DNA from: Bacteroidales bacterium
Lineage (GTDB): Bacteria > Bacteroidota > Bacteroidia > Bacteroidales > UBA7960
NCBI GenBank assembly: GCA_046261715.1
Contig: JBHEOF010000003.1
Span: 17,298-80,878, forward strand
DNA length: 63,581 bases
Direction of reading: 5' to 3'
The position numbers were made by a program, and so were the translations under genes. The notes below the pieces were generated by a model that did no database searches, was not told the origin of the DNA, and saw only the letters and a program-made list of their open reading frames with translations. Positions 18,584-54,777 of this stretch are shown piece after piece (the first letter of the stretch is position 1; the number at the start of each line of letters is the position of its first letter).

Positions 18584-18640
18584 TTAATGATTAAATTATT
18601 ATAAAAGCAGGATTTGTTTACATAATTAAAAAACTCAACC

Positions 18641-19345
18641 ATGATTAAAACAGTTAATTTAACGAAAGTTTTCCGTACAGAAGAAGTGGAAACCACTGCC
18701 CTGAACAATGTGTCTTTTGAGATAGAAGAAGGTGAATTTGTAGCCATTATGGGCCCGTCAGGATGCGGTAAGTCTACCTTGCTGAACATCCTTGGATTGC
18801 TTGACAATCCCACAAACGGAGATTACTATTTTCTTCAAAACGAAGTTTCAGATTTTTCCGAAAAGCAAAGGGCGAATCTTAGAAAGAAGAACATTGGTTT
18901 TGTTTTTCAGAATTTTAACCTGATCGATGAACTCAGTGTATATGAAAATGTTGAATTGCCGTTGATTTATCTGGGATACAGTTCATCAGAAAGGAAAAAA
19001 CGGGTTGAGGAGGTATTAACTCAGATGCAGATCATGCACCGAAAAAATCACTTCCCACTTCAACTTTCAGGAGGTCAGCAGCAGAGGGTAGCTGTATGTC
19101 GTGCCGTTGTTGCCCGTCCGCACATTATCCTTGCCGATGAGCCCACAGGTAACCTAGATTCAACCCATGGTGACGAGGTAATGAATTTGCTGGAAGAGCT
19201 CAATAAAAATGGTACAACCATAATTATGGTTACACACTCGCAGCGTGATGCATCATATGCACAAAGAATCATCAGGTTGTTTGACGGACAAATTGTTACT
19301 GAAGATAAAACTACCGAGTTCGTTCTCACATCTGTAGCCAAATAA
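18641..19345 (+). CDS. ABC transporter ATP-binding protein (MacB/LolD type)
   Basis: Walker A is GPSGCGKST, the signature is LSGGQQQRVAVCRA and Walker B is ILADEPTGNLD. Confidence 0.92.
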   Translation: MIKTVNLTKVFRTEEVETTALNNVSFEIEEGEFVAIMGPSGCGKSTLLNILGLLDNPTNGDYYFLQNEVSDFSEKQRANLRKKNIGFVFQNFNLIDELSVYENVELPLIYLGYSSSERKKRVEEVLTQMQIMHRKNHFPLQLSGGQQQRVAVCRAVVARPHIILADEPTGNLDSTHGDEVMNLLEELNKNGTTIIMVTHSQRDASYAQRIIRLFDGQIVTEDKTTEFVLTSVAK

Positions 19346-19462
19346 AGTAAAATAAAGAATCTTAAGGTTTTTACCTCTGTATTTTATATAAGGTAAGAGC
19401 CGGCATCAGGAGCAGTCACTGCTCCTGAAAAAATCCTGAATCCGGATTAAAACCAGCGGGTT

Positions 19463-21880: not shown

Positions 21881-21936
21881 CTGTATTGTGATAAGTGAAA
21901 TCTTTCTACGGTTATTTTTAAAAAATAAATAGTATA

Positions 21937-27400: not shown

Positions 27401-28039
27401 TTCAGTGCAGGCTACATTCAGATTACATGAGCCACTGTCGCCAAATCCTTTGGCAAACTCAAATGGATCGCGATAGGCGTGGGTAACCATTTCAATGCTA
27501 AGCTCTCCGGGAAAGTTTACATTGGAAGGCTCAAAATATTCAACGGTAATGTGGTCGCCTTCAACCAAAGTGGTGGCAAAATACCCGTCGTCCTGGTTGT
27601 TGTATTCGGTAAACGCGCCAAGCACTCTGCTGCGTTCCCGGTTATACACATAAAGTTCGGCACCCGGAGGGAGCTTATACTTATCGAAAGTAAGGTTGAT
27701 GGTATATGCGCCCTCAGATTCAATGGATGCTCTCCAGATTTTGTCACCATTTTCCAGAATATCCCATATACCTGAATTTTCAGGAGTAATATCTACGTAA
27801 AGATTATCTCCAAATCTCCATGGGATATCTTTTATTGTATCAAAAATCATATCTTCCTGTAAAAGAGCTTCCACATCTACCTTTTCCATGGGTATGACAG
27901 GCACATTCTCTGAAAGATCGGTTTTAAGGAAACTTGGAGGAGTACCGGGTTGAGATATTTGTGCAAAAATACCGGTATGTAAAGAGATTAAAGAAAAGGA
28001 TAAAAGAACTTTAAACAAAAGTGTAGATTTCTTTTTCAT
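24404..28039 (-). CDS. Large T9SS-secreted multidomain S1 (trypsin/lysyl-endopeptidase-like) serine protease
   Basis: 1211 aa from the ATG at 28039, with a signal peptide. The catalytic His context is CTGATINN...YVLSANHC and the Ser context is GSSGSPIFDAQGRILGQLHGG. These are followed by an FN3-like domain, a MAM-like domain, a second FN3-like domain and four ~80-aa repeats resembling divergent InlB B-repeats (e.g. GTGSVAGAGTFGAGEQILLTATPEPGWKFKHW). It ends in a T9SS CTD (VFPVPADNNINV...GIYFIKAQSTGKVYYTRIIVE). Confidence 0.8.
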   Translation of the reverse strand: MKKKSTLLFKVLLSFSLISLHTGIFAQISQPGTPPSFLKTDLSENVPVIPMEKVDVEALLQEDMIFDTIKDIPWRFGDNLYVDITPENSGIWDILENGDKIWRASIESEGAYTINLTFDKYKLPPGAELYVYNRERSRVLGAFTEYNNQDDGYFATTLVEGDHITVEYFEPSNVNFPGELSIEMVTHAYRDPFEFAKGFGDSGSCNLNVACTEADDWQQQVRSVVMLVTGGNGFCTGATINNTQQDQTPYVLSANHCYRNPSTVVFWFNWQSEECANPPSVPPYNSMSGATQISRNSSSDFWLMELNQPIPDEYNPYYAGWNRNLESVLNETIIGVHHPRGDIKKFSYADGGVQSASYLGSPGSGSTHWRIVWSGGTTTEPGSSGSPIFDAQGRILGQLHGGYAACGNTQPDWYGRFGISWNGGGSATTRLSEWLDPTGSNVEALGGLDPFSSAVSDPLNFSASTVSSMEIDLQWQLNEEEDFVMIAANDSEEFGIPFGPYATGDDIDDGGTVIYMGKGESFIHGDLESSTQYFYRIWSYAHPGPEYSTGIDADAFTTCEAITVFPFFEGFNTEEISPCWQQEFIVNEVDWLVGVGNNDGYPFSTHEGSNNVYYRVENVALNGSKTKLIGPVMDLDVYGSAQLSFFYANPALSSNQDILRVFYRTQPEGEWQLLETLDFNQFSWANVILDLPELSSETQIAFEAEGNRGRGISLDQVEVFAQFAEDIPNPVNLSYSVVNDNFIDLSWENVYEDNGPDKNEITGAGINVYRNDQLVFEGSDIEQNEYQDGPLPVGSYTYYVAGRRPDGELIVPSNEVTVAIESLGNEYTLSVSVTGEGILSVPLGDHLFSPGSEIIIHATANENWTLTQWLINGTDAGNNDSIQITLQEDTSVEAIFEVDTWEIILNAEPEEAVVALEGAGIYDHGENITISAIPAVGYIFLHWLSNDQIVSTRSETTIQILQDQQFTAILEAREFTVNVEVEPEGTGSVAGAGTFGAGEQILLTATPEPGWKFKHWTREVDNDDIPISDDPLLEFILSEDLELKAVFEEFLPALNISVEGEGTTNPQPGEYNFEYNEDVTLVATPTTPWLFEKWVINDEEFTQPEIEIIMTLDIEATAYFYYPTATDEISQEDVLRVFPVPADNNINVVLPNNGSWNIQVIAVTGQIMTESYFETIAESPIMLDVSDLNSGIYFIKAQSTGKVYYTRIIVE

Positions 28040-28074
28040 ATTATCAGGTTTGGTTTTTGAACAAAAAGTAAAAC

Positions 28075-28103
28075 ACAAAAAAAGGCCGGAATGTTCCGGC
28101 CTT
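28075..28103 (-). terminator. Rho-independent terminator after the 28124-28870 gene
   Basis: On the minus strand, AAGGCCGGAACATTCCGGCCTT (9-bp GC-rich stem) is followed by a run of about seven Ts. Confidence 0.8.
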
Positions 28104-28123: not shown

Positions 28124-28870
28124 TCAGTTTGTTACAACCATCCTTTTGCTTTCAACCACCTGGTTGTCAACAATGAGTGAATAGATGTATATACCGTTAT
28201 TAAAATTTTGTGTATTAATACGAATGCGGTTGTTGTTGCCAAAATTAAGGTTTTCTGTATACACCTGTTTTCCCAGCAGATTTCTGATTACGATTTGTGC
28301 ATTTCTGCTTTGGGGCGGAACGGAATAGTCAATCCAGGTAAAACCACGGGCAGGATTGGGTTGGGGATTGGATAATGCCCATCGTGCTAATTCAGGCTGA
28401 AAAACAGATGTTTGATCATCTGTAATTACAAATTTTATAATCACACTTACTTCATTAAATGAATCACGATCATTAAAAAACTCGAACTCTACATATGATG
28501 TTCCTTCGATACCCATTGGATAAAAATCTGAATAAAAGTCTGTTGAACTGGATGTTTCACCGGGTTCAATAGTAATAGGGTCTTCGACTTCAAAAAAAGT
28601 TGGAGAAAAGCAATAATCTTCCCAGCAAAAAGTGCATTCACTGCCATCTACAATATCATGTTCTATTTTTCTTACGAAAACTTCATGTGTTTCGTTGGAA
28701 TCATTTGTGAAGTATACCTGGGCTTTTATATAATCCTGGTTTGTAAAACCATCAACAACAAGCGTGTCATTTGTAATATTATTTCCGACTTCGTCGGAAA
28801 GAATTATTTGTGCTACTGACATCAATGAGAATGAAATCGCGATAGCTATACTTAGTATTAGTTTTTTCAT
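28124..28870 (-). CDS. Small secreted protein with T9SS C-terminal sorting domain; unknown function
   Basis: 248 aa with a signal peptide, a ~150-aa Ig-like region carrying a C-x2-C-x4-C motif (SECTFCWEDYC) and a T9SS CTD (NPQPNPARGFTWIDY...GIYIYSLIVDNQVVESKRMVVTN). Confidence 0.75.
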   Translation of the reverse strand: MKKLILSIAIAISFSLMSVAQIILSDEVGNNITNDTLVVDGFTNQDYIKAQVYFTNDSNETHEVFVRKIEHDIVDGSECTFCWEDYCFSPTFFEVEDPITIEPGETSSSTDFYSDFYPMGIEGTSYVEFEFFNDRDSFNEVSVIIKFVITDDQTSVFQPELARWALSNPQPNPARGFTWIDYSVPPQSRNAQIVIRNLLGKQVYTENLNFGNNNRIRINTQNFNNGIYIYSLIVDNQVVESKRMVVTN

Positions 28871-29114: not shown

Positions 29115-29122
29115 TAAATTTG
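29115..29122 (+). promoter_or_regulatory. Candidate -7 promoter box (TAnnTTTG)
   Basis: TAAATTTG lies 60 nt upstream of the ATG at 29182. Confidence 0.3.
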
Positions 29123-29181: not shown

Positions 29182-31647
29182 ATGAAAAGAACTTTACTTT
29201 TAACAACTATCCTTTTTATTTCCGGCTTTTTAAGTCCTGCACAAGTTTTACTTGAAGAAAATTTCAGCAGTGGCACATTTCCTCCGGCAGGCTGGAGCAT
29301 TTCAGCCCACACGGCCAACTGGTCAGCTGCAGCTACTTCCAATGCCGGCGGGCAGGCCCCCGAAGCACGTTTTACCTGGACACCTCAGTTTAATGCTGTT
29401 AGTCGTCTTGAAAGCCTTTCACTTGACTTATCTTCCAATGAATCAGGGGTTGTTTCCATCAGTTTTCGACATATGGTTGACCACTACGGAGGAACTTTTC
29501 AGATCGGGCTTGCATACAGTGATAATGGCGGGGAGTGGCAAAATATATGGACTGTAAGCCCTTCTGCGAACATTCCTGCTCAAACCATTTCATTACAATT
29601 GGATACAGATGATTTTCCTGTGAACTCAGATGATGTGAGAATTGGATTTTTCTTTTCCGGAGCCAGTTTTAACATTAATGACTGGTATATCGATGATTTG
29701 AAAATTGTTGTGCCCCTGGCCTTTGATCTTGCCATGAAAGAAATACTTGTTCCTGATTTCTTTGTTGAAGATGTTCCTGTAACTGGTGTTGTGGAAAATC
29801 TTGGTATGGATGAAATTACATCATTTGATATTAACTGGCAACTTAATGATGGAGCTGTTAACACAGAAAGTTTTTCAGAACTTTCCATTCCTTTTGGGTC
29901 AACTTATTTCATTGAAACCGAAGGTTTGATTGAAAATGAACCCGGCACATACACTCTAGCTGTTTTTGTTTCCAATGTAAATGGCCAGGAATCTGATGAC
30001 AATCCTGATAATGATATGCTGGAAAAAACTATCTCTGTTCCTTCAGGATCAGTTGTTTACAGGCCATTGTTTGAGTCTTTTTCTTCTTCAACTTGTCCGC
30101 CCTGTGCACCATTTAATACAAATGTAATGAATCCGTTTATTGAAAACAATATAAATGATCTTTCAATAATAAAGTATCAAATGAACTGGCCTGGAAGTGG
30201 AGATCCTTATTATACGCCTGAGGGTGGCGAAAGAAGATTTTATTATGGTATTTCTGCTGTACCATCCCTGTTTGTAGATGGAAATTCTGTGGCTACCACT
30301 GCGGTAGCTGTAAATAATGCTTTTCAGGAAGGGATTAGCCGTCAGGCCTTTATGGAATTGACTGGTACTAGCAGCATCGACGGAACTACCATTACAGTTG
30401 ATGCTGAAATATTGCCATATCTTACAATTTCAGATCTTCGCCTGCATGTGGTTGTGGTTGAGAAAACTACTTACGACAACGCAACCTCCAACGGTGAAAC
30501 AGAGTTTCATTATGTAATGATGAAAATGATTCCTGATGCTGAAGGCACAACAATAAATCTTACAGATGGCGAAATATACAGTAACAGTTTTACTATCGAT
30601 CTGTCAAATACAAATATTGAAGAGTTTGATGATCTTGCCGTGGTTTTATTTATACAGGATTACCCAAGCAGAATGGTTTTTCAGTCAGCATTTACTTTTC
30701 ATGAAGAAACTATTGCAATTGATTTTGATGTAGAAGACCTTAGCGAAGGTATAGAACTTGACGGGATTGTGAATGTGAGTTTTAGTTCGCCTGTTACATT
30801 TACTGATGGATTAGAAATTACCAATGAAAATGTTCACGAACTGGTTACATATACAATCTTTGATAAGCAGGGTGAAACGGTTGCTTTTACTGCAGCAATT
30901 TCAGATGATAAAAAGAATATTACCATTACACCTGACGAATTACTTGATTTTAATACTCAGTATTTTGTTGAAATTGCTTCGGTTATGGGCCCAGGTGGTA
31001 CCATCACCGAACCCGTAAGCATCGTCTTCACCACCCGTACAACCTACGGTGCACCGGTGGCCACCTTTGATGTGATTGATGAAAGTACAGATGTGCCTGT
31101 TGATCATACTTTCACTGTTGAGTTTAATCAGCCTGTGCGTCATGCCGATGGTTCTGAGATAACCTTCCTGAATATAGGTCAGCTTATTACTTTCCGTAAA
31201 GATAACCTGGATGGTGATGTAGTAAATTTATCTTCAGCTATTAACGAAGATAAAACTGTCATAACCCTTAATCCACTGGCAGATCTGCTGCCCGATCAGC
31301 AATATGTTTTGGGTATTGGCGAGCTTATGGGTCTTGATGATGAAATCAGTGAACCCGTATACGTTACCTTTACTGCGGCTGATGCACTTTCTGCAGGAAC
31401 CTTTGATCTTGCAGAAATCAATATTTATCCCAATCCTGCCAGCAATAAATTTTTCATTGATCTGCCCTCAGGTTCGGGTGAAATGCATTTGCGGTTATAT
31501 GATATCAGCGGTAAATTGCTTTTCAGTAAAACAACCAAAGCTCAACAGGAAGTTGTTGATATTGAAAATTTGAAGTCAGGTGTCTACTTTGTAGAAATCA
31601 TTTCCAATGATTATACTGTAAGAAAAAAAATCGCTGTAACCGATTAA
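29182..31647 (+). CDS. T9SS-secreted multidomain protein with an Omp28-like thioredoxin-fold CxxC domain
   Basis: 821 aa from the ATG at 29182, with a signal peptide. The N-terminal LLEENFSSGTFPPAGWS module is MAM/choice-of-anchor-J-like and is followed by a CARDB-like module. The segment RPLFESFSSSTCPPCAPFN carries a CPPC motif (30094-30105). Two Ig-like (SbsA/Big_5-like) repeats follow, then a T9SS CTD (IYPNPASNKFFIDL...GVYFVEIISNDYTVRKKIAVTD). Confidence 0.7.
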   Translation: MKRTLLLTTILFISGFLSPAQVLLEENFSSGTFPPAGWSISAHTANWSAAATSNAGGQAPEARFTWTPQFNAVSRLESLSLDLSSNESGVVSISFRHMVDHYGGTFQIGLAYSDNGGEWQNIWTVSPSANIPAQTISLQLDTDDFPVNSDDVRIGFFFSGASFNINDWYIDDLKIVVPLAFDLAMKEILVPDFFVEDVPVTGVVENLGMDEITSFDINWQLNDGAVNTESFSELSIPFGSTYFIETEGLIENEPGTYTLAVFVSNVNGQESDDNPDNDMLEKTISVPSGSVVYRPLFESFSSSTCPPCAPFNTNVMNPFIENNINDLSIIKYQMNWPGSGDPYYTPEGGERRFYYGISAVPSLFVDGNSVATTAVAVNNAFQEGISRQAFMELTGTSSIDGTTITVDAEILPYLTISDLRLHVVVVEKTTYDNATSNGETEFHYVMMKMIPDAEGTTINLTDGEIYSNSFTIDLSNTNIEEFDDLAVVLFIQDYPSRMVFQSAFTFHEETIAIDFDVEDLSEGIELDGIVNVSFSSPVTFTDGLEITNENVHELVTYTIFDKQGETVAFTAAISDDKKNITITPDELLDFNTQYFVEIASVMGPGGTITEPVSIVFTTRTTYGAPVATFDVIDESTDVPVDHTFTVEFNQPVRHADGSEITFLNIGQLITFRKDNLDGDVVNLSSAINEDKTVITLNPLADLLPDQQYVLGIGELMGLDDEISEPVYVTFTAADALSAGTFDLAEINIYPNPASNKFFIDLPSGSGEMHLRLYDISGKLLFSKTTKAQQEVVDIENLKSGVYFVEIISNDYTVRKKIAVTD

Positions 31648-31803
31648 TCTGCATTAAATGAAAAAGATCAGGGATTTGATTAAGATGGATTTTCTTAGTA
31701 ACTTCAAGGTAGTCTACAATAAATCAAATTTCTGTTAATACGGTCCGGAGCAATGTAATGCTATGCTGCATTGCTCCGTGCCATCTTTTTCAAATCTAAT
31801 ATT

Positions 31804-33183
31804 ATGAAAAAAATTTTATTACCTGTTCTTTCATCATTAATCATTTCTTTTTTCCCTTTTTCAGAAGTTTTTGCAGATGGAAAGTCATCGATTATCAGGA
31901 TTGATAATTTTTTTAGCGGTCCCATCCACAAAACTCTTGATGATTATCAATTAAAGGGAGAAATAGTTTATATGGGTAATGATACAGTCCAATCATTAAT
32001 TGTCAATTACAAAATCGGGGATGATTTCACAGGGTCAGAAACACTTGCTGATATCGAAATTCTTCCTTATTATCCTTTCAGATATGTAGTTGATGAAACA
32101 TGGCCACCGGAAAATGAAGGAAGTTATGAAGTAAGTATATGGTTTTCCGGTCTCAATGGGAGTGATCCTGACGAAGCAGTAAGCGACACCATGAAAGTAA
32201 ACGTGGATGTGTATGACGAGCTTGCAGAAAGACAAATGGCTTTGCTGGAGAGTTTTTCAAGCATCAATTGCGGCAGTTGTGCTGCGGTAACACCACATCT
32301 CAGAAAAATTGTAGATGAGAATCCGGATTCCTTTGCAATGATTTATTATCATCCTTTACATTATGAAAATAGTCCGCTCCATACCTTCAATCCGAAAGAT
32401 CAGCTTACCAGACGCGATTACTACGAAGTATTTTACACTCCCTATTCTGTAATAGGAAACCTATATGAAGGAGGCAGCGAAGGAGTAACAGATGAATTGA
32501 TGGAACTTGAAATCATTAAATGGTCGGGCTTTTCTGTTGAAGGAACATGGTATGTTGAAGATGATACTCTTCATATTTTCGCTGAAGGCGAAATTTTTGT
32601 AAATACCCAGGATAAGGATTACAGGTTAATGCTTGCAGGAACACAGGAAAGTGTACATTTTGATGATCCGCCGGGTTCAAACGGTGAAAAGGATTTTTAT
32701 CACGTAATGCGATTTTTTGCTCCGGATGCTCAGGGCACAAAGCTCTTGGGAGAAGAAGATAAAACAACTTTTTCATATCAAATTAGCATGCCATGGTATG
32801 AAACACTTGATCCGGAAAATATGACGATGATTGCTTTTATTCAGGAATTGAATACATCTGAAATTTCGCAGGTAGTAAGATTAGATTATCAGGCACCTGA
32901 TGATGATGACGATGATGATACCACATATATTTCAGAACTTTCTGATGATAAAAATCCGTTTCTTATTTATCCCAATCCTGCCAATCAATACATAAGGCTT
33001 AAGGGAGATTATTTGGGAATGCAGCCCCAACAAATAATGCTTTTTGATTTACAGGGGAGGCTGATTAAAACCCAAAGTTTCAATGATCATGTGGACATCA
33101 GTGACATTTCTGCAGGAATTTACTATCTGTACATTCAAACAGGAGATCATACATTCACGGAAAAGATTTCCATTGTAAGATAA
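31804..33183 (+). CDS. T9SS-secreted protein with a CARDB-like module and an Omp28-like CxxC domain; paralog of the preceding gene
   Basis: 459 aa from the ATG at 31804, with a signal peptide. LLESFSSINCGSCAAVTP carries a CGSC motif (32269-32280). A hepta-Asp linker (32899-32919) precedes the T9SS CTD (IYPNPANQYIRL...GIYYLYIQTGDHTFTEKISIVR). Confidence 0.7.
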   Translation: MKKILLPVLSSLIISFFPFSEVFADGKSSIIRIDNFFSGPIHKTLDDYQLKGEIVYMGNDTVQSLIVNYKIGDDFTGSETLADIEILPYYPFRYVVDETWPPENEGSYEVSIWFSGLNGSDPDEAVSDTMKVNVDVYDELAERQMALLESFSSINCGSCAAVTPHLRKIVDENPDSFAMIYYHPLHYENSPLHTFNPKDQLTRRDYYEVFYTPYSVIGNLYEGGSEGVTDELMELEIIKWSGFSVEGTWYVEDDTLHIFAEGEIFVNTQDKDYRLMLAGTQESVHFDDPPGSNGEKDFYHVMRFFAPDAQGTKLLGEEDKTTFSYQISMPWYETLDPENMTMIAFIQELNTSEISQVVRLDYQAPDDDDDDDTTYISELSDDKNPFLIYPNPANQYIRLKGDYLGMQPQQIMLFDLQGRLIKTQSFNDHVDISDISAGIYYLYIQTGDHTFTEKISIVR

Positions 33184-33218
33184 ACTAAAATCTTAAAACC
33201 AATCAACCCATACAAAAC

Positions 33219-33734
33219 ATGCATACAAAATTCAGAATGATCTTTACCGGGATAGTCTTAATGTTGCTTATAAGCAATGGTTTTTCTCAGGGAACAGGTG
33301 CACGCACTATCCCTGACCACACTATTAAAACACTTGATGGGCGGAACTTTCAAACATCAGGCTTTGAAAATAACGGTAAGCCTTATGTTTTGAGTTTCTG
33401 GGCCACCTGGTGCCGCCCCTGCCTGAAGGAACTCAACGCCATAGCTGAAATTTATGACGATTGGCAGGACATGGGCTTCAAGGTCATTGCCGTTAGCACC
33501 GATGATGCCCGCACCCGCGCCAATATTCTTCCTATGGTTAACGGGCGTGGCTGGGAATATGAGTTTTATCATGATGAAAACGGCGATTTTCGTCGTACCA
33601 TGGGTGTAAATATGGTACCCCATACCTTCATAGTTGATGGGAATGGCGAAATTGTTAGCCAGCATACTTCCTTTGCCGATGGTATGGAATGGGAAATGTT
33701 TGATAAATTGATGGAACTTCTTGAAAAAGAATAA
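33219..33734 (+). CDS. TlpA/ResA-like periplasmic thiol:disulfide oxidoreductase (thioredoxin fold)
   Basis: 171 aa with a signal peptide. The active-site motif SFWATWCRPCLKELN carries a CRPC motif (33411-33422). The size and layout are typical of the TlpA/AhpC-TSA family. Confidence 0.85.
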   Translation: MHTKFRMIFTGIVLMLLISNGFSQGTGARTIPDHTIKTLDGRNFQTSGFENNGKPYVLSFWATWCRPCLKELNAIAEIYDDWQDMGFKVIAVSTDDARTRANILPMVNGRGWEYEFYHDENGDFRRTMGVNMVPHTFIVDGNGEIVSQHTSFADGMEWEMFDKLMELLEKE

Positions 33735-33738
33735 AAGC

Positions 33739-35400
33739 ATGACAACAAAAGGGAGATTTGTGTTACTGACCATGCTGGTTGGTTTATTATTTAGTGCCCC
33801 GGTATTATCACAGGATTTGCTGCCGGGGGCAAGGGTTTGGGGAAATTTTCAGATGGATGCCCAGTATTATCAAAATGATTCTTTGATTGGAGCACCCGAA
33901 GTACCTGAAAAGATTTTAATGAATGCCTTTGCCAATATCAATGCCGAGTATAAGGGTTTTACCGTTGGATTGAGATATGAAAGTTATCAGAACCCTTTGC
34001 TGGGGTTCGATACCCGCTATCGTGGTAATGGCATCCCTTATCGCTTTGTAAATTACACACAGGATAATCTGGAGGTGACTTTGGGTAATTTCTACGAACA
34101 ATATGGAAACGGACTGGTATTGCGGAGCTATGTGGAACCCAATCTGGGCCTTGATAATTCGTTTGACGGTGTAAGGTTACTTTATCGTCCGGTTGATGGT
34201 ATTACCTTGCGCACTCTGATAGGTCAGCAACGCTTTTACTGGGAAAAAGGCCCCGGGATTGTCAGAGGAGCTGATGCTGAAATTAACCTTAACCAGGTTT
34301 TCAAAAGTTTCTCAGAATTACAGAGTCAATGGATATTGGGCCTGAGTGGTGTAAGCAAGTTTCAGCGGGATCAGGATCCCATTTATATATTGCCCCAAAA
34401 TGTTGCTGCGTTTGCAGGCAGGGTAAATTTCTCCAGAGGCGGGATCAATATCAATTCTGAGTATGCCTGGAAGGCCAATGATCCATCGTCGGAAAATAAT
34501 TTCATATATCGCCATGGTGAAGCTTTGATTGTAAATACATCGTACTCATTCAGTGGATTTGGATTGCTTCTTTCGGCCAAAAGAATTGATAATATGGGTT
34601 TCCGGTCTAACCGCAGTGCTACAGGGAATGACCTGCAAATCAATTACCTTCCGGCTATGACACGTCAACACCTTTACAGCCTTACGGGTATGTATCCTTA
34701 TGCCACCCAGCCCACCGGAGAAATGGGAGCACAGGCTGAACTCACTTTCAGGTTGCCCCGTAAATCTTTGTTTGGCGGACCTTTTGGCACAACTGTTACC
34801 ATCAATTCAAGTATTGCAAATTCAATTGACAAACAACCCCTTAACGACACCACAGCTATCGGGCAAACCGGAACAGATGGTTATACATCCCGGTTTTTTG
34901 CAGCAGGTGATGAAAAGTACTTTCAGGACCTGAATGTAGAGATCAGCCGACGATTCAACAGAAATCTGAAAGGTACTTTTACTTACATGAACCTGTTTTA
35001 CAACCAGAATGTGATTGAAGGATATCAGGACAGGGAGAACATAAAAGCACATATTTTTGTAGCTGACATGACACTCAGGTTGCAACGCAGAAGATCATTG
35101 CGCTGGGAAATTCAGCATCTGACAACTGCACAGGACAACGGCAACTGGGCCATGTTGCTTCTGGAATATAATATTGCTCCCAGTTGGTTTTTTGCCGTGT
35201 CAGATCAATACAACTATGGCAATGAAAATGAGGATATGCAGGTTCATTATTATACATTCAATGTGGGTTACAATAAAAATGCAAACCGTTTTGTATTGGG
35301 CTGGGGTCGTCAGCGTGAAGGTATCATATGTGTTGGGGGTGTTTGCCGGGTGGTACCTGCATCAAACGGATTTACAATTGGTGTTACCAGTAGTTTTTAA
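33739..35400 (+). CDS. Outer-membrane beta-barrel protein (porin-like, uncharacterised; possibly DUF6029-type)
   Basis: 553 aa from the ATG at 33739, four nt after the TlpA stop. It has a signal peptide, alternating amphipathic beta-strand patterns and the C-terminal ...GFTIGVTSSF ending in Phe, as in OMPs. Confidence 0.65.
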   Translation: MTTKGRFVLLTMLVGLLFSAPVLSQDLLPGARVWGNFQMDAQYYQNDSLIGAPEVPEKILMNAFANINAEYKGFTVGLRYESYQNPLLGFDTRYRGNGIPYRFVNYTQDNLEVTLGNFYEQYGNGLVLRSYVEPNLGLDNSFDGVRLLYRPVDGITLRTLIGQQRFYWEKGPGIVRGADAEINLNQVFKSFSELQSQWILGLSGVSKFQRDQDPIYILPQNVAAFAGRVNFSRGGININSEYAWKANDPSSENNFIYRHGEALIVNTSYSFSGFGLLLSAKRIDNMGFRSNRSATGNDLQINYLPAMTRQHLYSLTGMYPYATQPTGEMGAQAELTFRLPRKSLFGGPFGTTVTINSSIANSIDKQPLNDTTAIGQTGTDGYTSRFFAAGDEKYFQDLNVEISRRFNRNLKGTFTYMNLFYNQNVIEGYQDRENIKAHIFVADMTLRLQRRRSLRWEIQHLTTAQDNGNWAMLLLEYNIAPSWFFAVSDQYNYGNENEDMQVHYYTFNVGYNKNANRFVLGWGRQREGIICVGGVCRVVPASNGFTIGVTSSF

Positions 35401-35417
35401 CGAAAAGACTTAAATAA

Positions 35418-36263
35418 ATGAAAATACTCAGCAGGTTTATTCCGGTTTTAATAATGGTCTGGTTCACTTTTTCCGGATGCGATAAAATTGAACCACCTTA
35501 CATGACCAATACCGATCAGGATGGGGGCAACGGGGAAACAGTCCGTAAATTTTTACTTGAAGAATTTACAGGACATCGTTGCCCCAATTGCCCTGCCGGA
35601 ACAGAAGTGGCAAAAACCTTGAAGACATTCTATGGCGACAGGCTGGTGATTGTTACAATACACGCAGGGTTTTTTGCCATGCCAATGAGTGATCCTTTCC
35701 AATATGATTTCAGAACGCCGGAAGGAACAGCTTTGAATGATTATTTCGGTATTACACAAAATCCTGTGGGACTTGTAAACCGTAATGAATTTGAAGGTGC
35801 TTTGCTGCTGACCCCCGGGGCATGGGGTTCGGCAATGCAGGTGCTGGAAGATTTTCAACCCGATGTCAGACTGGATATAGGCCTAACCCGGATGTCGGGT
35901 AACGAAAATTTCAGACTTGATGCAGGTATTACATCACTGAAAGATCAGGAAGTGGAATTGTATCTTGTTGCATTGCTAGTAGAAGACGGAATTATTAAAC
36001 CCCAAAAAACAAATGATCCTGATTATCCTGATGGTGTTATTTTGGATTATGAGCATAATCATATACTGAGAATGGGTATTACAGATATTTGGGGAGAAAA
36101 GATCAGCGAAGGATTATTTGGTTTTGATGATGCCCAGCATCGGAATTATGATTTTCAGATTGACTCAGGATGGGTTAAGGAAAATTGTTCTGTTGTTGTT
36201 TATGTAATGAATTCGGATATGGAAATTTTGCAGGTTGAGCAAAAGAAACTCCCATCTAATTAA
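35418..36263 (+). CDS. Omp28-family outer-membrane lipoprotein with a CxxC motif
   Basis: 281 aa with a lipobox (WFTFSGC). FLLEEFTGHRCPNCPAG carries a CPNC motif (35580-35591). The mature size of about 28 kDa fits the P. gingivalis Omp28 family. Confidence 0.65.
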   Translation: MKILSRFIPVLIMVWFTFSGCDKIEPPYMTNTDQDGGNGETVRKFLLEEFTGHRCPNCPAGTEVAKTLKTFYGDRLVIVTIHAGFFAMPMSDPFQYDFRTPEGTALNDYFGITQNPVGLVNRNEFEGALLLTPGAWGSAMQVLEDFQPDVRLDIGLTRMSGNENFRLDAGITSLKDQEVELYLVALLVEDGIIKPQKTNDPDYPDGVILDYEHNHILRMGITDIWGEKISEGLFGFDDAQHRNYDFQIDSGWVKENCSVVVYVMNSDMEILQVEQKKLPSN

Positions 36264-36996: not shown

Positions 36997-37353
36997 TTAA
37001 CGCTTTTCCTTACCTGTTTTATAGAGCAACACTTCTGCTGTTTCAGTTGTTACAAGGCATCCGTATCGAATTGATTCCATGATGGGATTAATGCTGTCAT
37101 AAAAAGCAAGTACTTTATCTTTTTCATCAATGATTTCGATGATTACAGGCAGCTTTTCAGTTACTTCCCAGAATTTATAGGAATGTATTACCGAACTTGC
37201 TCCATACCCGAGAATGCCTTTGGTAACGGTTGCTCCTGCAAGACCATAATCTTTCGCTTTAAATACGATGGTTTCGTACAGTAGCTTTCCTTCATATTTA
37301 TCCGTTGAACTGATAAATATTTTCAGCGACAATGCTTTCGACTTCTTTTTCAT
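36997..37353 (-). CDS. DUF190 (PII-like fold) protein, co-transcribed with crcB
   Basis: 118 aa. The pattern LKIFISSTDKYEGKLLYETIVFKAKDYGLAGATV is typical of DUF190. It starts one nt after the crcB stop. Confidence 0.7.
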   Translation of the reverse strand: MKKKSKALSLKIFISSTDKYEGKLLYETIVFKAKDYGLAGATVTKGILGYGASSVIHSYKFWEVTEKLPVIIEIIDEKDKVLAFYDSINPIMESIRYGCLVTTETAEVLLYKTGKEKR

Positions 37354-37354: not shown

Positions 37355-37732
37355 TCAAATCAATTTTATCAGGGATCTGCCTGCAAAAACAGCCATGATG
37401 CCCAGAAAAAAACTTAAGCTCATATAGCTTGCAAACCGCAGGAGTTCTTTGCTTTGCAGCAGTAAGAAAGCATCATTAGATACAGTTGAAAAGGTAGTAA
37501 AGCCGCCACAAAAACCTAAGGTTAAAAACACACGCCATTCCTGCGACATGATATTATTCTTTTCGAAGATACCAAAGAAGATACCTATCAGGAAGCTTCC
37601 GGCAATATTAACAACTATGGTTCCCCAGGGGAAGACAGAATCATAGGCGAGCTGAAAATATCTTAAAACAATAAACCGTAAAACTGTACCCAGAAATCCA
37701 CCGAAACCTGCAATCAATAAAAGTTTTACCAT
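37355..37732 (-). CDS. crcB: Fluoride ion channel CrcB/FluC
   Basis: 125 aa with four TM segments. It carries the motifs GGFLGTVLR and GFCGGFTTFST and is preceded by a fluoride riboswitch. Confidence 0.92.
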   Translation of the reverse strand: MVKLLLIAGFGGFLGTVLRFIVLRYFQLAYDSVFPWGTIVVNIAGSFLIGIFFGIFEKNNIMSQEWRVFLTLGFCGGFTTFSTVSNDAFLLLQSKELLRFASYMSLSFFLGIMAVFAGRSLIKLI

Positions 37733-37758
37733 AAATGTACTGGTTTGAATTATATTAT

Positions 37759-37816
37759 GGTAGAAGTCATCAGCCGTTGATTAACATGGCGGTTAAAGGC
37801 AGACCTCATTGCCCGG
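37759..37816 (-). promoter_or_regulatory. Fluoride riboswitch (crcB motif)
   Basis: The reverse complement reads CCGGGCAATGAGGTCTGCCTTTAACCGCCATGTTAATCAACGGCTGATGACTTCTACC. This matches the crcB-motif layout (GGnGAUGnnGUUCnnCC ... AACCGCC ... GCUGAUGAnnnCUAC). It lies directly 5' of crcB. Confidence 0.85.
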
Positions 37817-37862
37817 ATGCAAATGTAACAATCTTTAAGGTAGGTTTTAATAAATGACTTTT

Positions 37863-52806: not shown

Positions 52807-53484
52807 CTATTCTGATTTTTCTTCTTTGGTTTCACCGCCTTCAGCAGCTCCTTCTTCTCCTTCAGCACCTTCTTCTCCTTCGGCACCTTCTTCAGTACCT
52901 TCTCCTTCTTCCTCTTCAGCATCAACGGGTGCCATCATTACGGACCTTGCTGATTTCACAATTACCACAACTGCATTATGGGGATTAAGGAATTCAATAT
53001 CCTTATATTCAAGTTCACCAACCTGCACAGAGTCACCGATTTCCAGTTTTGAAATATCAATAGTTATTCTGTCGGGAAGCGCGTCCATAAGACCTTTTAT
53101 CCTGAGTTTACGAAGCTTGGTAATGAGTTTCCCACCTTTAATAACGCCGGGTGAATCACCCTTAAGTTCAATAGGAATATCAATTTTTACAGGCTTATCG
53201 TCAAAAACCTGAAGGAAATCGCAATGGATAACCCGGTCGGTTACAGGATGGAATTGTGCATCCTGAAGGATTACATCGTACTTTTTTCCATCAATATCCA
53301 GATTCACGATGCATGAATCGGGCGTGTAAATAATGTCTCTAAAGGCCAGTAAAGGAAGAGAAAAAGCAATTTGTTTTTCACCACCATATAGCACACAGGG
53401 AACAAGTCCCTCGCGGCGTAGCGCCTTAGCATCTTTTTTCCCTACGTTCTCTCTGAGAGAACCGCTCACAGATACTTTTTTCAT
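52807..53484 (-). CDS. rplY: 50S ribosomal protein L25 / general stress protein Ctc, with an acidic Glu/Gly/Ala-rich C-terminal tail
   Basis: RENVGKKDAKALRREGLVPCVLYGG... (L25/Ctc N-domain). The ~40-aa tail is EEEEGEGTEEGAEGEEGAEGEEGAAEGGETKEEKSE. Confidence 0.9.
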   Translation of the reverse strand: MKKVSVSGSLRENVGKKDAKALRREGLVPCVLYGGEKQIAFSLPLLAFRDIIYTPDSCIVNLDIDGKKYDVILQDAQFHPVTDRVIHCDFLQVFDDKPVKIDIPIELKGDSPGVIKGGKLITKLRKLRIKGLMDALPDRITIDISKLEIGDSVQVGELEYKDIEFLNPHNAVVVIVKSARSVMMAPVDAEEEEGEGTEEGAEGEEGAEGEEGAAEGGETKEEKSE

Positions 53485-53528
53485 TTGTTATTGATTTTTA
53501 GATGAATAATAATGGAATTGCTTTATGC

Positions 53529-53567: not shown

Positions 53568-53590
53568 AAGAAATATTTTTTTAAAAATAA

Positions 53591-54769: not shown

Positions 54770-54777
54770 CATATAAA

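What the first reader, a model, noticed from the sequence alone, without database searches (positions are those of the whole stretch)
29182..36263. Candidate undescribed cell-surface thiol-redox module: three Omp28-like CxxC paralogs, a TlpA-like thioredoxin and an OM beta-barrel in one co-directional cluster
Five same-strand genes sit with very short gaps (4 nt between the TlpA stop and the barrel start, 17 nt between the barrel and the lipoprotein).

Three of them share an (E/L)ESFSS/EEFTG-x-x-C-x-x-C segment:
- CPPC at 30094-30105
- CGSC at 32269-32280
- CPNC at 35580-35591

This segment sits at the position expected for a thioredoxin-fold active site. It matches my memory of the function-unknown Omp28 family of Porphyromonas.

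Two paralogs carry CARDB-like modules and T9SS sorting tails, so they should be displayed outside the outer membrane. The third has a lipobox. Between them lie a canonical periplasmic TlpA-type reductase (WCRPC at 33411-33422) and a 553-aa OMP ending in Phe.

Periplasmic reductase, barrel and surface CxxC proteins together suggest a route for reducing equivalents, or for a thiol-reactive substrate, across the outer membrane. I know of no characterised system with this composition.
Basis: partly seen in the sequence, partly recalled or inferred. Interest (0 to 1): 0.72.

Follow-up and report, generated by a model that had tools for sequence, protein, structure and literature searches.

The report
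Conserved Bacteroidota outer-membrane thiol-redox gene module
The five genes are one copy of a gene module found across the phylum Bacteroidota, made of a periplasmic thiol reductase, a large uncharacterised outer-membrane barrel and a thioredoxin-fold lipoprotein; it is also present but unstudied in the gum pathogen Porphyromonas gingivalis, next to a known secretion regulator, and probably handles thiol/disulfide chemistry at the cell surface.

Summary

- **Domain assignments.** g3 is TlpA/ResA-like, g4 is DUF6029 (E 2e-185), and g5 is an Omp28 lipoprotein. g1 and g2 are T9SS-tailed proteins with an Omp28-type domain.
- **Fold.** The g5 model (pLDDT 92.7) best matches P. gingivalis HBP35. 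HBP35 is a T9SS surface protein with CxxC-dependent disulfide-reductase activity in vitro and hemin binding.
- **Synteny.** TlpA→DUF6029→Omp28 occurs in 64 of 66 evaluable DUF6029 loci. DUF6029 sits directly upstream in 71 of 72 Omp28 loci. All three Cys motifs are conserved, including the barrel's only Cys pair (C-x4-C).
- **P. gingivalis.** The same cluster is PG2175–PG2174–Omp28 (PG2173)–PorA (PG2172). A PorA-like gene lies at 28124-28870 (−) in the window and in 33 of 80 loci.
- **Accessory cargo.** T9SS CxxC proteins accompany the core in about 40% of loci.

The best reading is an envelope and surface thiol-redox module that has not been described as a system. Its parts are partly known.

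Electron or protein passage through the barrel is inferred, not shown.

The "CARDB-like" modules were not confirmed.

The parts
28124..28870 (-). PorA-like small T9SS-CTD protein (248 aa). It is divergent from g1 and has a conserved Cys cluster (ECTFCWEDYC).
   Evidence: Pfam Por_Secre_tail at 3.4e-10. BLASTP against P. gingivalis PorA gives 23% identity over 222 aa, E 2e-5. A profile of the N-domains (CTD removed) of 32 locus-linked homologues hits this protein at 5e-50 and the P. gingivalis PorA N-domain at about 1e-15. PorA-like genes occur in 33 of 80 DUF6029 loci.
29182..31647 (+). g1: 821-aa T9SS cargo. Domain order is an N-terminal unassigned region, an Omp28/HBP35-type thioredoxin-like domain (about residues 285-505, CPPC at 305-308, nt 30094-30105), two Big_5 Ig-like domains and the T9SS CTD.
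   Evidence: Searches give the CTD (4.5e-18) and Big_5 (6e-13). One search gives Omp28 at 9.9e-11, 42.2 bits, above the gathering cutoff, for the domain scanned alone. One search shows the profile of g5 orthologues aligning to residues 288-501. One search shows only two Cys in the protein.
31804..33183 (+). g2: 459-aa T9SS cargo with an Omp28/HBP35-type domain (about residues 135-360, CGSC at 156-159, nt 32269-32280) and a T9SS CTD.
   Evidence: One search gives the CTD (3.5e-12) and Omp28 at 2.5e-4, below the cutoff. One search gives NF045500 (Omp28-related selenoprotein) at 9e-10 over the CxxC region. One search gives 1.7e-7 with the g5-family profile. In one search the L001 orthologue scores 5e-47 with the iterated family profile. 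One search shows only two Cys.
33219..33734 (+). g3: 171-aa secreted TlpA/ResA/CcmG-like thiol:disulfide oxidoreductase, with WCRPC at nt 33408-33422.
   Evidence: AhpC-TSA 6e-21, Redoxin 6e-18, ResA subfamily 1.6e-21 (below its cutoff). The protein has an N-terminal signal peptide. It is 42% identical to the P. gingivalis protein in the same position. WCxPC is present in 75 of 75 orthologues.
33739..35400 (+). g4: 553-aa DUF6029 outer-membrane beta-barrel that ends in Phe. Its only two Cys form CVGGVC at nt 35329-35346 (C531 and C536).
   Evidence: PF19494 at 2e-185. AF2 model with pLDDT 76.4 and about 24-26 strands; only generic large-barrel matches. C-x4-C is present in 80 of 80 loci and in 126 of 128 diverse family representatives.
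35418..36263 (+). g5: 281-aa Omp28-family lipoprotein. It has a lipobox Cys21 (nt 35478-35480), a conserved CDKIEPPY tether, a thioredoxin-like domain with CPNC (nt 35580-35591) and a C-terminal beta-sandwich with a YEHNH motif.
   Evidence: Omp28 at 1e-28 and NF033782 at 2e-41. AF2 pLDDT 92.7. Foldseek top hit HBP35 (5y1a), E 4e-13; profile hits to 2r2c (7e-29) and 5y1a (1.7e-4); invariant C21, E48, G52, C55, C58, H82, P116 and H213.

Best explanation
The cluster is one instance of a module conserved across Bacteroidota.

**Composition**
- The invariant core is a tlpA-like reductase gene, then a DUF6029 barrel gene, then an Omp28 lipoprotein gene.
- In about 40-50% of loci the core is extended. 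The extensions are T9SS-anchored thioredoxin-type CxxC proteins (g1 and g2 here, which are HBP35-like) and a PorA-like T9SS protein (28124-28870, minus strand here).

**Proposed mechanism**
1. The secreted TlpA-like protein is recharged by a CcdA/DsbD-type membrane protein encoded elsewhere. It is the dedicated periplasmic reductant of the CxxC sites of Omp28/HBP35-family proteins.
2. The Omp28 lipoprotein and the DUF6029 barrel form an outer-membrane pair. The lipoprotein's conserved, disordered N-terminal tether docks on or threads through the large barrel. The barrel's only Cys pair sits in its last extracellular hairpin.
3. Thiol-disulfide oxidoreductase activity is thereby placed at the cell surface. 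There it acts together with the T9SS-anchored paralogues, which are surface thioredoxins with a beta-sandwich ligand domain that binds hemin in HBP35.

**Shown**
- Gene order and its conservation.
- The motifs and their conservation.
- The folds, and the homology to HBP35 and Omp28.
- The same cluster in P. gingivalis.

**Taken from the literature**
- The redox and hemin activities of HBP35.
- The biology of PorA.

**Inferred**
- That TlpA's clients are the Omp28-family CxxC sites.
- That barrel and lipoprotein form a complex.
- The orientation of the lipoprotein.
- Any redox or protein passage through the barrel.
For: **Synteny**
- TlpA upstream and the Omp28 lipoprotein downstream, on the same strand, occur in 64 of 66 evaluable DUF6029 loci. 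These come from Bacteroidales, Flavobacteriales, Chitinophaga, Hymenobacter, Sphingobacteriaceae, Lentimicrobium and Vicingaceae.
- In the reverse direction, 71 of 72 Omp28-lipoprotein loci in metagenomes have DUF6029 immediately upstream, and 51 of 55 have TlpA before the barrel.
- In the window the gaps are 4 and 17 nt.

**Motif conservation**
- WCxPC is present in 75 of 75 TlpA orthologues.
- The Omp28 CxxC (mostly CxNC) and the lipobox are conserved.
- The barrel's C-x4-C is present in 80 of 80 loci and in 126 of 128 representatives that share less than 50% identity. The median mature barrel has 2 Cys.

**Fold**
- The g5 model has pLDDT 92.7 with a beta-CxxC-alpha-beta ... cis-Pro(P116)-beta arrangement followed by a beta-sandwich.
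- Its best PDB match is HBP35 (5y1a), E 4e-13, TM 0.63. The next is the thioredoxin-like 2axo.
- The alignment of g1, g2, g5, P. gingivalis Omp28 and HBP35 keeps E-x-F, C-x-x-C and the Pro.

**Literature on the homologue**
- HBP35 has C48/C51-dependent insulin reductase activity, complements E. coli dsbA, binds hemin in residues 135-344, and is T9SS-displayed (PMC2907840).

**Neighbourhood theme**
- 31 extra Omp28/HBP35-like ORFs occur in 26 loci. All 31 have a T9SS CTD and 30 of 31 have CxxC.
- Eight further T9SS-CTD proteins have an N-terminal WCxxC redoxin-like motif.
- Among 52 loci with at least 6 kb of upstream sequence, 21 have such cargo and 26 have a PorA-like gene. These co-occur: 19 of 21 against 7 of 31, Fisher p = 2e-6.

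**P. gingivalis**
- The order is TlpA-like, DUF6029, Omp28 (PG2173), PorA (PG2172). Identities to g3, g4 and g5 are 42%, 39% and 27%.

**Other**
- NCBIfam holds an 'Omp28-related selenoprotein' model, which g2 and g5 hit weakly.
- The barrel is large, about 24-26 strands. Its nearest structural matches are barrels that house a protein partner: FimD/PapC, MtrB and LptD.
Against: - No experiment or computation here shows an interaction between TlpA and Omp28, or between Omp28 and the barrel.
- The barrel model is only of moderate confidence (pLDDT 76). Its structural matches are generic, with TM below 0.5.
- Placing the Cys hairpin outside the cell rests on standard OMP topology, not on inspected coordinates.
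- The lipoprotein's N-terminus (C-D-K-I-E) only partly fits the Bacteroidota surface-export signal C-x-K-(D/E)2 (PMC5080379). Its orientation is therefore open.
- No CcdA or DsbD gene was found among the 38 larger window ORFs scanned out of 48 of at least 150 aa.
- T9SS CxxC cargo accompanies the core in only about 40% of loci. The core must therefore function without adjacent cargo.
- In P. gingivalis, mutating PorA's four cysteines did not affect its signalling role (PMC12152298).
- A conserved C-x4-C in a beta-hairpin can be a purely structural disulfide.
Confidence: 0.45

Rival explanations
1. Protein-export reading. DUF6029 is a dedicated outer-membrane translocon or anchor that carries the Omp28 lipoprotein, and where present PorA, to the cell surface independently of the T9SS. 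TlpA only keeps their cysteines reduced, and so export-competent, in the periplasm. No redox relay crosses the membrane.
For: [quoted passage not shown] Its route is unknown (PMC7712824).
- porA lies directly after DUF6029-Omp28 in P. gingivalis, and PorA-like genes accompany the module in 33 of 80 loci.
- The barrel is large (about 24-26 strands). Its best structural neighbours are protein-conducting or protein-housing barrels: FimD/PapC ushers and LptD.
- Omp28 has a conserved tether motif (CDKIExPY) followed by a disordered linker.
Against: - About half of the loci with long flanks lack a PorA-like gene nearby.
- This reading gives no reason for the invariant Cys pair in the barrel or for the CxxC active site in Omp28.
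- Small CTD proteins may escape by other routes; PMC7712824 discusses Fjoh_0547 in this context.
- No interaction data exist.
Confidence: 0.2
2. Ligand-capture reading. Omp28/HBP35-family proteins are primarily haem- or metal-binding proteins, and the barrel is the uptake channel. The CxxC plus TlpA keep ligand-binding thiols reduced, or reduce the ligand, by analogy with ResA/CcmG in cytochrome c maturation or TlpA-Sco in copper delivery.
For: - HBP35 binds hemin through its Omp28-like C-terminal part, and hbp35 mutants grow poorly when hemin is limited (PMC2907840).
- Invariant His residues (H82, H213) and nearly invariant ones (H53, H215) sit beside the CxxC in the lipoprotein family.
- The beta-sandwich resembles NPC2/PDE-delta type ligand-binding sandwiches.
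- g3's best named NCBIfam hits are ResA, DsbE and TlpA.
- Cytochrome oxidase genes lie within 5-8 kb in 8 loci, and they lie next to a lone DUF6029 with a Sco-like ORF in L049.
Against: - The HxH motif is not kept in g1 or g2.
- The module occurs in many non-auxotrophic aerobes.
- The barrel has no plug or TonB-box region.
- The cox linkage is confined to one set of Flavobacteriales-like loci and may reflect shared ancestry.
- HBP35 still binds hemin when its CxxC is mutated to serines (PMC2907840).
Confidence: 0.15
3. Assembly-factor reading. TlpA is a folding or isomerisation catalyst for the barrel's own disulfide, and Omp28 is an LptE-like plug. The module is then a structural outer-membrane complex of unrelated function, and g1 and g2 are merely neighbouring paralogues.
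For: - The barrel's Cys pair is invariant.
- LptD-LptE is a precedent for a large barrel with a lipoprotein plug whose disulfides need periplasmic oxidoreductases (established knowledge). LptDE structures are among the Foldseek matches.
Against: - This reading does not explain the strictly conserved thioredoxin-type active site (CxxC plus cis-Pro) in the lipoprotein.
- It does not explain the selenoprotein relatives.
- It does not explain the repeated recruitment of two different kinds of T9SS-displayed CxxC proteins to the locus.
- TlpA-type WCxPC proteins are reductants rather than oxidants (established knowledge).
Confidence: 0.1

Closest known systems
HBP35 of Porphyromonas gingivalis (PG0616; PDB 5y1a)
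   Same: It has a thioredoxin-like N-terminal part with CxxC followed by an Omp28-type beta-sandwich. It is the best structural match of the g5 model and a profile hit. Like g1 and g2, it carries a T9SS C-terminal domain and is displayed on the surface. Its CxxC-dependent disulfide reductase activity and hemin binding were shown in vitro (PMC2907840).
   Different: Sequence identity is only about 20-25%. g1 and g2 have extra N-terminal and Ig-like domains. g5 is a lipoprotein without a CTD. No activity has been measured for any window protein.
P. gingivalis Omp28 (PG2173; PDB 2r2c) and its locus PG2175-PG2172
   Same: The gene order is the same: TlpA-like, DUF6029, Omp28 lipoprotein, with 42%, 39% and 27% identity to g3, g4 and g5. 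The EEFTG-x-x-C-x-N-C-P motif, the lipobox and the barrel's C-x4-C-RVVP tail are all shared. A PorA gene is adjacent, as a PorA-like gene is in the window.
   Different: In P. gingivalis porA follows omp28 on the same strand; here it is divergent upstream. There are no T9SS Omp28 paralogues in the P. gingivalis locus. The P. gingivalis TlpA-like motif is NCKPC rather than WCRPC. In the papers I could search, Omp28 has no assigned function and the locus has not been described as a unit.
TlpA / ResA / CcmG periplasmic reductases fed by CcdA/DsbD
   Same: g3 has the Redoxin/AhpC-TSA fold, a signal peptide and a WCxPC active site. It is encoded next to its presumptive clients, as ResA and CcmG are.
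   Different: It scores below the curated cutoffs of every named equivalog or subfamily: ResA 77 against 170, DsbE 57.7 against 123, TlpA 52.6 against 230. The presumptive clients are outer-membrane and surface thioredoxin-fold proteins, not apocytochromes or Sco/CoxB. No CcdA or DsbD is encoded nearby.
Large barrel plus lipoprotein outer-membrane complexes (LptD-LptE; MtrB-MtrA-MtrC)
   Same: The barrel has about 24-26 strands and its gene is adjacent to that of an outer-membrane lipoprotein. MtrCAB is the precedent for moving electrons across an outer membrane through a barrel-sheathed protein, and LptDE for a lipoprotein plug with redox-controlled assembly. Both appear among the Foldseek matches.
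   Different: Similarity is generic only (TM below 0.5, about 8-10% identity). There are no haem motifs, and no LptD N-terminal domain was detected. A thiol-based relay across an outer membrane has no precedent that I know of.
[quoted passage not shown]
   Same: The window protein at 28124-28870(-) shares the size, the N-domain (profile E about 1e-15 to PorA), the C-x(2-4)-C pair and the T9SS CTD. It also shares the genomic linkage to DUF6029-Omp28.
   Different: Identity is only 23%. PorA's regulatory role has been shown only in P. gingivalis, and its authors found BLAST homologues only in Porphyromonas (PMC7712824). Function outside that genus is untested.

Membership tests
Omp28 family (Pfam PF11551 / NCBIfam NF033782 lipoprotein) | HMM score at or above the curated cutoff | tested here: met
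   g5 scores 100.7 bits on PF11551 against a cutoff of 34.9. The g1 middle domain scores 42.2 bits against 34.9. Two scores fall short: g5 on NF033782 is 142 bits against a cutoff of 150, and g2 on PF11551 is about 22 bits, below the cutoff. g2's membership therefore rests on profile searches.
Omp28 family (Pfam PF11551 / NCBIfam NF033782 lipoprotein) | N-terminal lipobox (lipoprotein) | tested here: met
   g5 has FSG-C21. Cys21 is invariant in 65 homologues, and the lipobox is present in 75 of 75 orthologues. g1 and g2 are not lipoproteins; they have a signal peptide plus a T9SS CTD.
Omp28 family (Pfam PF11551 / NCBIfam NF033782 lipoprotein) | Fold like the solved Omp28 or HBP35 structures | tested here: met
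   The profile hit to 2r2c is 7e-29. Foldseek matches the g5 model to 5y1a at E 4e-13, TM 0.63. No structure was predicted for g1 or g2.
HBP35-like T9SS surface thioredoxins | Thioredoxin-type CxxC and cis-Pro placed N-terminal to the Omp28-type sandwich | tested here: met
   The alignment of g1, g2, g5, P. gingivalis Omp28 and HBP35 has E, F, C, C and P invariant. CxxC is present in 30 of 31 locus-linked T9SS paralogues.
HBP35-like T9SS surface thioredoxins | T9SS C-terminal sorting domain | tested here: met
   g1 scores 4.5e-18 and g2 3.5e-12 on PF18962. g5 has none.
HBP35-like T9SS surface thioredoxins | Disulfide reductase activity and hemin binding | not testable with these tools
   Known only for HBP35 itself (PMC2907840). 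Testing needs insulin or DTNB assays and haem-binding assays on purified domains.
TlpA/ResA/DsbE-type periplasmic thiol:disulfide oxidoreductase | Redoxin/AhpC-TSA fold with a WCxxC active site and a signal peptide | tested here: met
   g3 scores 75.1 bits on PF00578 and 65.5 bits on PF08534. WCRPC was confirmed, and WCxPC is present in 75 of 75 orthologues.
TlpA/ResA/DsbE-type periplasmic thiol:disulfide oxidoreductase | Orthology to a named enzyme (score at or above the NCBIfam curated cutoff) | tested here: not met
   ResA 77 against 170, DsbE 57.7 against 123.15, TlpA 52.6 against 230, StoA 52.7 against 210. g3 is TlpA-like, not a member of any named orthologous group.
TlpA/ResA/DsbE-type periplasmic thiol:disulfide oxidoreductase | Electron supply from CcdA or DsbD | tested here: inconclusive
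   No CcdA or DsbD domain was found in the 38 window ORFs scanned. ORFs from 52807 to 61694 were not scanned, and the rest of the genome is unavailable.
DUF6029 (PF19494) | HMM score at or above the curated cutoff, full length | tested here: met
   618 bits against a cutoff of 27, covering profile positions 9-538 of 538.
DUF6029 (PF19494) | Outer-membrane beta-barrel with a C-terminal aromatic residue | tested here: met
   The AF2 model is nearly all beta with about 24-26 strands. Foldseek hits are exclusively outer-membrane barrels. The terminal residue is F in 117 of 128 representatives. Whether the lumen is open or plugged could not be read from the output.
PorA family (T9SS regulator ligand) | Homology of the non-CTD domain to P. 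gingivalis PorA | tested here: met
   The profile of 32 locus-linked N-domains hits P. gingivalis PorA at about 1e-15 and the window protein at 5e-50. Pairwise BLASTP gives E 2e-5.
PorA family (T9SS regulator ligand) | Binding to PorY and activation of PorXY-SigP | not testable with these tools
   Shown only in P. gingivalis (PMC12152298).
Trans-membrane thiol relay (DsbD/CcdA-like) - considered for 'works like' only | Homology to DsbD/CcdA, or a membrane-embedded Cys pair | tested here: not met
   g4 hits only DUF6029. Its Cys pair lies in a hairpin beyond the last two membrane strands, not inside the membrane. The module is therefore not a member; any relay would be of a new type.

The most novel reading that the evidence does not exclude
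The DUF6029 barrel together with the Omp28 lipoprotein is a previously unrecognised outer-membrane conduit. It could work in either of two ways. It could be a thiol-disulfide relay that passes reducing equivalents from periplasmic TlpA to cell-surface thioredoxin-fold proteins, an outer-membrane counterpart of DsbD. Or it could be the missing T9SS-independent route by which PorA and Omp28 reach the surface. Either way it would tie envelope redox state to the PorA-PorXY control of type IX secretion.
Probability: 0.2. Interest if true: 0.9.

Novelty: new variant of a known kind. Interest (0 to 1): 0.68.

Why it matters
**For the field**
- Bacteroidota display many cysteine-dependent proteins on their surface, such as gingipains, the PorU sortase and HBP35. 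No mechanism is known for controlling thiol redox state beyond the periplasm.
- This module is tightly conserved: 64 of 66 loci in one direction and 71 of 72 in the other. It gives DUF6029, a family with no experimentally assigned role (427 clusters at 50% identity with E of at most 1e-30), and the long-known antigen Omp28 a concrete, testable context.

**Why it is testable now**
- The same operon is present in P. gingivalis, which is genetically tractable. There it abuts porA, whose T9SS-independent export route is an open question in the published literature.
- Clear experiments are therefore possible: gene deletions, thiol trapping and surface-exposure assays.

**A correction to the literature**
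- The results suggest that PorA-like proteins are widespread in the phylum rather than confined to Porphyromonas, as the literature states.

Tried and rejected
- **Chance adjacency.** Rejected by the two censuses.
- **Known porin.** Rejected. The barrel hits only DUF6029. Foldseek gives generic matches with TM below 0.5. The only literature mention of DUF6029 is an HHpred resemblance to the Wzi barrel (PMC9603273), and no polysaccharide-export (OPX) genes were seen among the recurrent neighbours of the 80 loci.
- **CARDB modules in g1 and g2.** Not found even at E up to 1.
- **Single-sequence PDB searches with g1 and g2.** These gave only CTD hits and marginal thioredoxin or tryparedoxin hits. 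Profile methods were needed.
- **Promoter and terminator scan.** The counts equal those of shuffled sequence, so it is uninformative. A TAnnTTTG-like element (TAAATTTG, 29115-29122) lies about 60 nt before g1.
- **Other conserved neighbours.** Candidates were a small OM beta-barrel-like ORF, UbiX, mannose-6-P isomerase, QueG, RuvB and cox genes; most were named from sequence recognition only. Each is confined to a subset of lineages, so I treated them as inherited synteny, not as parts of the module.
- **Profile drift.** A third iteration of the Omp28 profile drifted into TlpA-type thioredoxins (107 to 178 hits). I discarded it and used the two-round profile.
- **Surface-export signal of g5.** It matches the canonical signal only partly, so this is inconclusive.
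- **Literature searches on the P. gingivalis locus tags.** PG2172-2175 and PGN_0120-0126 returned nothing on function for the TlpA-like, DUF6029 or Omp28 genes.
- **Model coordinates.** They could not be inspected, so the lumen state and Cys-Cys distances were not measured.

Full report
**1. The observation**

The region holds five co-directional ORFs, exactly as described:

| Gene | Coordinates | Length | Notes |
|---|---|---|---|
| g1 | 29182-31647 | 821 aa | |
| g2 | 31804-33183 | 459 aa | |
| g3 | 33219-33734 | 171 aa | |
| g4 | 33739-35400 | 553 aa | last residue Phe |
| g5 | 35418-36263 | 281 aa | lipobox FSG-C21 |

- The gaps are 156, 35, 4 and 17 nt.
- CPPC, CGSC and CPNC are at the stated coordinates.
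- The coordinates given for 'WCRPC' cover only CRPC. The full motif is 33408-33422.
- The CxxC pair supplies the only cysteines in the whole of g1 and of g2.

**2. What the five proteins are**

- **g3** is a secreted Redoxin/AhpC-TSA protein. Its best named relatives are ResA, DsbE, StoA and TlpA, and all score below their curated cutoffs. It is TlpA-like but is not an orthologue of a named enzyme.
- **g4** is a full-length DUF6029 protein (618 bits).
- **g5** is an Omp28-family lipoprotein: PF11551 at 100.7 bits, and NF033782 at 142 bits against a cutoff of 150.
- **g1 and g2** carry T9SS C-terminal sorting domains.
  - g1's central domain passes the Pfam Omp28 threshold when scanned alone (42.2 bits).
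  - g2 is recognised only by profiles: 1.7e-7 with a profile of g5 orthologues, and 5e-47 for its L001 orthologue with the iterated family profile.
- No CARDB domain was found. g1 has Big_5 Ig-like domains.

**3. Fold of the Omp28-type domain**

An AlphaFold2 model of g5, built on 65 homologues, is confident (pLDDT 92.7).
- After the lipid-anchor Cys comes a conserved CDKIEPPY motif and a disordered linker.
- Next comes a reduced thioredoxin-like unit: a beta strand, C55-x-x-C58 at the start of a helix, a second beta strand, and then invariant P116 at the position expected for the thioredoxin cis-Pro, before a further strand.
- A beta-sandwich follows.

Foldseek against the PDB puts HBP35 of P. 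gingivalis (5y1a) first (E 4e-13, TM 0.63). The thioredoxin-like 2axo is second.

A sequence profile finds Omp28 (2r2c, 7e-29) and HBP35 (1.7e-4).

An alignment of g1, g2, g5, P. gingivalis Omp28 and HBP35 keeps E-x-F, C-x-x-C and the Pro invariant. The YEHNH motif is shared by the lipoproteins and HBP35 but is degenerate in g1 and g2.

HBP35 is a T9SS cargo protein. According to PMC2907840:
- The recombinant form reduces insulin faster than E. coli thioredoxin, and this depends on C48 and C51.
- The gene complements E. coli dsbA.
- The C-terminal part (residues 135-344) binds hemin.

The 'function-unknown' label is therefore only partly right. g1 and g2 are best described as HBP35-like surface thioredoxin-fold proteins.

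NCBIfam also contains an 'Omp28-related selenoprotein' model, hit weakly by g2 and g5. By name, it implies relatives that carry selenocysteine. That would point to a catalytic redox role, although the model does not show which residue is replaced.

**4. The barrel**

- The DUF6029 model has moderate confidence (pLDDT 76.4) and is all-beta, with about 24-26 strands.
- Foldseek returns only generic large barrels: FimD/PapC ushers, MOMP, MtrB, LptD and TonB-dependent receptors. All have TM below 0.5.
- The only literature mention I found is an HHpred resemblance to the Wzi barrel (PMC9603273).
- The two cysteines of g4 (C531 and C536, CVGGVC, nt 35329-35346) lie on a short hairpin between the last two membrane strands.
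- OMP termini are periplasmic, so this hairpin should project on the extracellular side.
- The C-x4-C is present in 80 of 80 genome loci and in 126 of 128 full-length representatives of the family that are less than 50% identical to each other. Most mature proteins have exactly two Cys.
- The family has 427 clusters at 50% identity with E of at most 1e-30.

**5. Synteny**

*Census starting from DUF6029.* I fetched 80 loci, one species each, spanning Bacteroidales, Flavobacteriales, Chitinophaga, Hymenobacter, Sphingobacteriaceae, Lentimicrobium, Vicingaceae and Marinilabiliales.
- A TlpA-like gene lies immediately upstream in 72 of 74 evaluable loci.
- An Omp28 lipoprotein gene lies immediately downstream in 68 of 70.
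- Both are present in 64 of 66, always on the same strand.
- The two exceptions are L049 and L071. In L049 the barrel is followed by ORFs resembling cytochrome oxidase subunit III and Sco.

*Reverse census starting from the Omp28 lipoprotein, in metagenome contigs.*
- DUF6029 lies directly upstream in 71 of 72 loci.
- TlpA lies before the barrel in 51 of 55. The misses have unusually late barrel-ORF starts, which may mean split ORFs.

No other neighbour is conserved beyond lineage-restricted housekeeping genes.

**6. Accessory genes**

- Twenty-six of the 80 loci carry 31 additional Omp28/HBP35-like ORFs, nearly all directly upstream of tlpA on the same strand. All 31 have a T9SS CTD, and 30 of 31 keep CxxC.
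- Eight further T9SS-CTD proteins next to the core have a different domain: an N-terminal WCxxC (mostly WCGPC) redoxin-like region.
- The locus therefore repeatedly recruits surface-displayed thiol-oxidoreductase-type proteins of two unrelated thioredoxin subfamilies.

**7. The P. gingivalis connection and PorA**

- I took the Omp28 sequence of PDB 2r2c, found P. gingivalis Omp28, and then fetched its genome context.
- The order there is TlpA-like (160 aa), DUF6029 (581 aa), Omp28 (PG2173) and PorA (PG2172). Identities to g3, g4 and g5 are 42%, 39% and 27%.
- P. gingivalis Omp28 has the same EEFTGQKCLNCP motif, and its barrel ends ...CSGGVCRVVPE....
- PorA is a small T9SS-CTD protein that activates the PorXY-SigP cascade controlling T9SS genes (PMC7712824, PMC12152298).
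- The 248-aa CTD protein encoded divergently at 28124-28870 in the window is PorA-like. BLASTP gives E 2e-5. A profile built from the non-CTD domains of 32 locus-linked homologues hits it at 5e-50 and the P. gingivalis PorA N-domain at about 1e-15, aligning the C92/C96 pair with a conserved fCwgnC motif.
- PorA-like genes occur in 33 of 80 loci.
- Among 52 loci with at least 6 kb of upstream sequence, 26 have a PorA-like gene and 21 have T9SS CxxC cargo. The two co-occur in 19 (Fisher p = 2e-6, not corrected for phylogeny).
- Two published statements bear on this. [quoted passage not shown] Second, porA homologues were reported only in Porphyromonas, which the profile result contradicts.
- The PorA papers do not mention the neighbouring genes. 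Full-text searches on the locus tags found nothing functional.
- One proteomic table lists Omp28 among proteins seen only in vesicles from H2O2-treated P. gingivalis (PMC12937337). This is suggestive at most.

**8. Interpretation**

*Shown:* a very tightly linked three-gene core in which each product has a conserved Cys pair.
- A TlpA-type WCxPC.
- An extracellular-hairpin C-x4-C, which supplies the only cysteines in most of these barrels.
- A thioredoxin-type CxxC in a lipoprotein homologous to a protein with demonstrated disulfide reductase activity.
- In addition, T9SS-displayed CxxC proteins and PorA are frequently recruited to the locus.

*Best explanation (confidence about 0.45):* an envelope and surface thiol-redox module.
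- TlpA is the dedicated periplasmic reductant of Omp28/HBP35-family active sites.
- Omp28 works as a pair with the barrel at the outer membrane.

*Open:*
- Whether reducing equivalents, or the proteins themselves, pass through the barrel.
- The orientation of the lipoprotein. The N-terminal C-D-K-I-E of g5 only partly matches the Bacteroidota lipoprotein export signal C-x-K-(D/E)2 (PMC5080379).
- The electron source for TlpA. No CcdA or DsbD is encoded among the window ORFs scanned.

*Rivals:*
- A T9SS-independent translocon or anchor for Omp28 and PorA (0.2).
- A haem or metal capture and uptake system (0.15).
- An LptDE-like structural complex with TlpA as a folding factor (0.1).

**9. Novelty and verdict**

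- The parts are partly known: the partial Omp28 structure, HBP35's activity, the TlpA-like family and PorA.
- The module as a unit, the role of DUF6029, the link to PorA and the wide distribution of PorA-like proteins were not found in the searchable literature.
- I rate it a new variant of a known kind, namely TlpA-type envelope thiol pathways extended to an outer-membrane barrel and lipoprotein pair with surface-displayed clients.
- There is about a 20% chance that it is something categorically new: an outer-membrane thiol relay or a new protein conduit.
Its interpretation is partly supported.

Noticed in passing
window 28124-28870 (-): A small T9SS-CTD protein just outside the finding's coordinates belongs to the PorA family, the ligand of the PorXY system that regulates the T9SS. 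PorA-like genes accompany the module in 33 of 80 loci and directly follow Omp28 in P. gingivalis. This contradicts the published statement that porA homologues exist only in Porphyromonas (PMC7712824).
   Followed up: yes
window 24404-28078 (-): A 1224-aa T9SS cargo protein with a trypsin-like serine peptidase domain, a MAM / choice-of-anchor-J domain and four InlB B-repeat-like domains lies next to the PorA-like gene.
   Followed up: no
window 3308-3515 (-), with ORFs 2192-3199 (-) and 164-2152 (-): A cobalamin riboswitch (111.6 bits) lies upstream of a 335-aa T9SS-CTD protein, which is followed by a TonB-dependent receptor. This may be a B12-regulated operon that includes a T9SS-secreted protein, perhaps a surface B12-capture protein.
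   Followed up: no
window 37754-37822 (-), with ORFs 37355-37732 (-) and 36997-37353 (-): A fluoride riboswitch (51.4 bits) lies upstream of crcB and a DUF190 gene. This is an ordinary fluoride-resistance unit immediately downstream of the module, on the opposite strand.
   Followed up: no
L049:7923-11464; also L018, L026, L030, L045, L058, L067, L076, L077: L049 has a DUF6029 gene without the TlpA and Omp28 partners. It is followed by ORFs that look like cytochrome c oxidase subunit III and a Sco1/SenC-like protein; I recognised these by eye and did not run them against Pfam. Eight other loci have ORFs that look like cytochrome oxidase subunits I and II, 5-8 kb downstream of the module. This could be a copper or cytochrome-oxidase link, or lineage-specific synteny.
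   Followed up: partly
L034:5051-6769, L041:5548-7251(-) and 2907-4571(-), L051:5652-7415, L057:3611-5116, L061:1440-2909, L072:5241-7304, L075:2694-5306: T9SS-CTD proteins of about 490-870 aa with an N-terminal WCxxC redoxin-like region (SATWCGPCW-like where sequences were read) sit beside the core module. They form a second, unrelated class of presumably surface-displayed thioredoxin-type proteins.
   Followed up: partly
23 of the 80 genome loci, e.g. L018:10550-11720, L045:10483-11698: A ~207-aa ORF that looks like a small outer-membrane beta-barrel protein and a UbiX-like gene directly follow omp28 in 22-23 loci, mostly Flavobacteriales/Vicingaceae-type. Both were named by eye from their sequences. 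I treated them as inherited synteny, but the small barrel protein was not examined.
   Followed up: no
window 17333-24336 (+): A HlyD-family adaptor, an ABC ATPase and two MacB-like FtsX permeases form a MacAB-type efflux or export cluster upstream of the T9SS protease gene.
   Followed up: no
L082:5698-6180 (P. gingivalis): The P. gingivalis TlpA-like protein of the module has NCKPC instead of the WCxPC found in 75 of 75 other orthologues.
   Followed up: no
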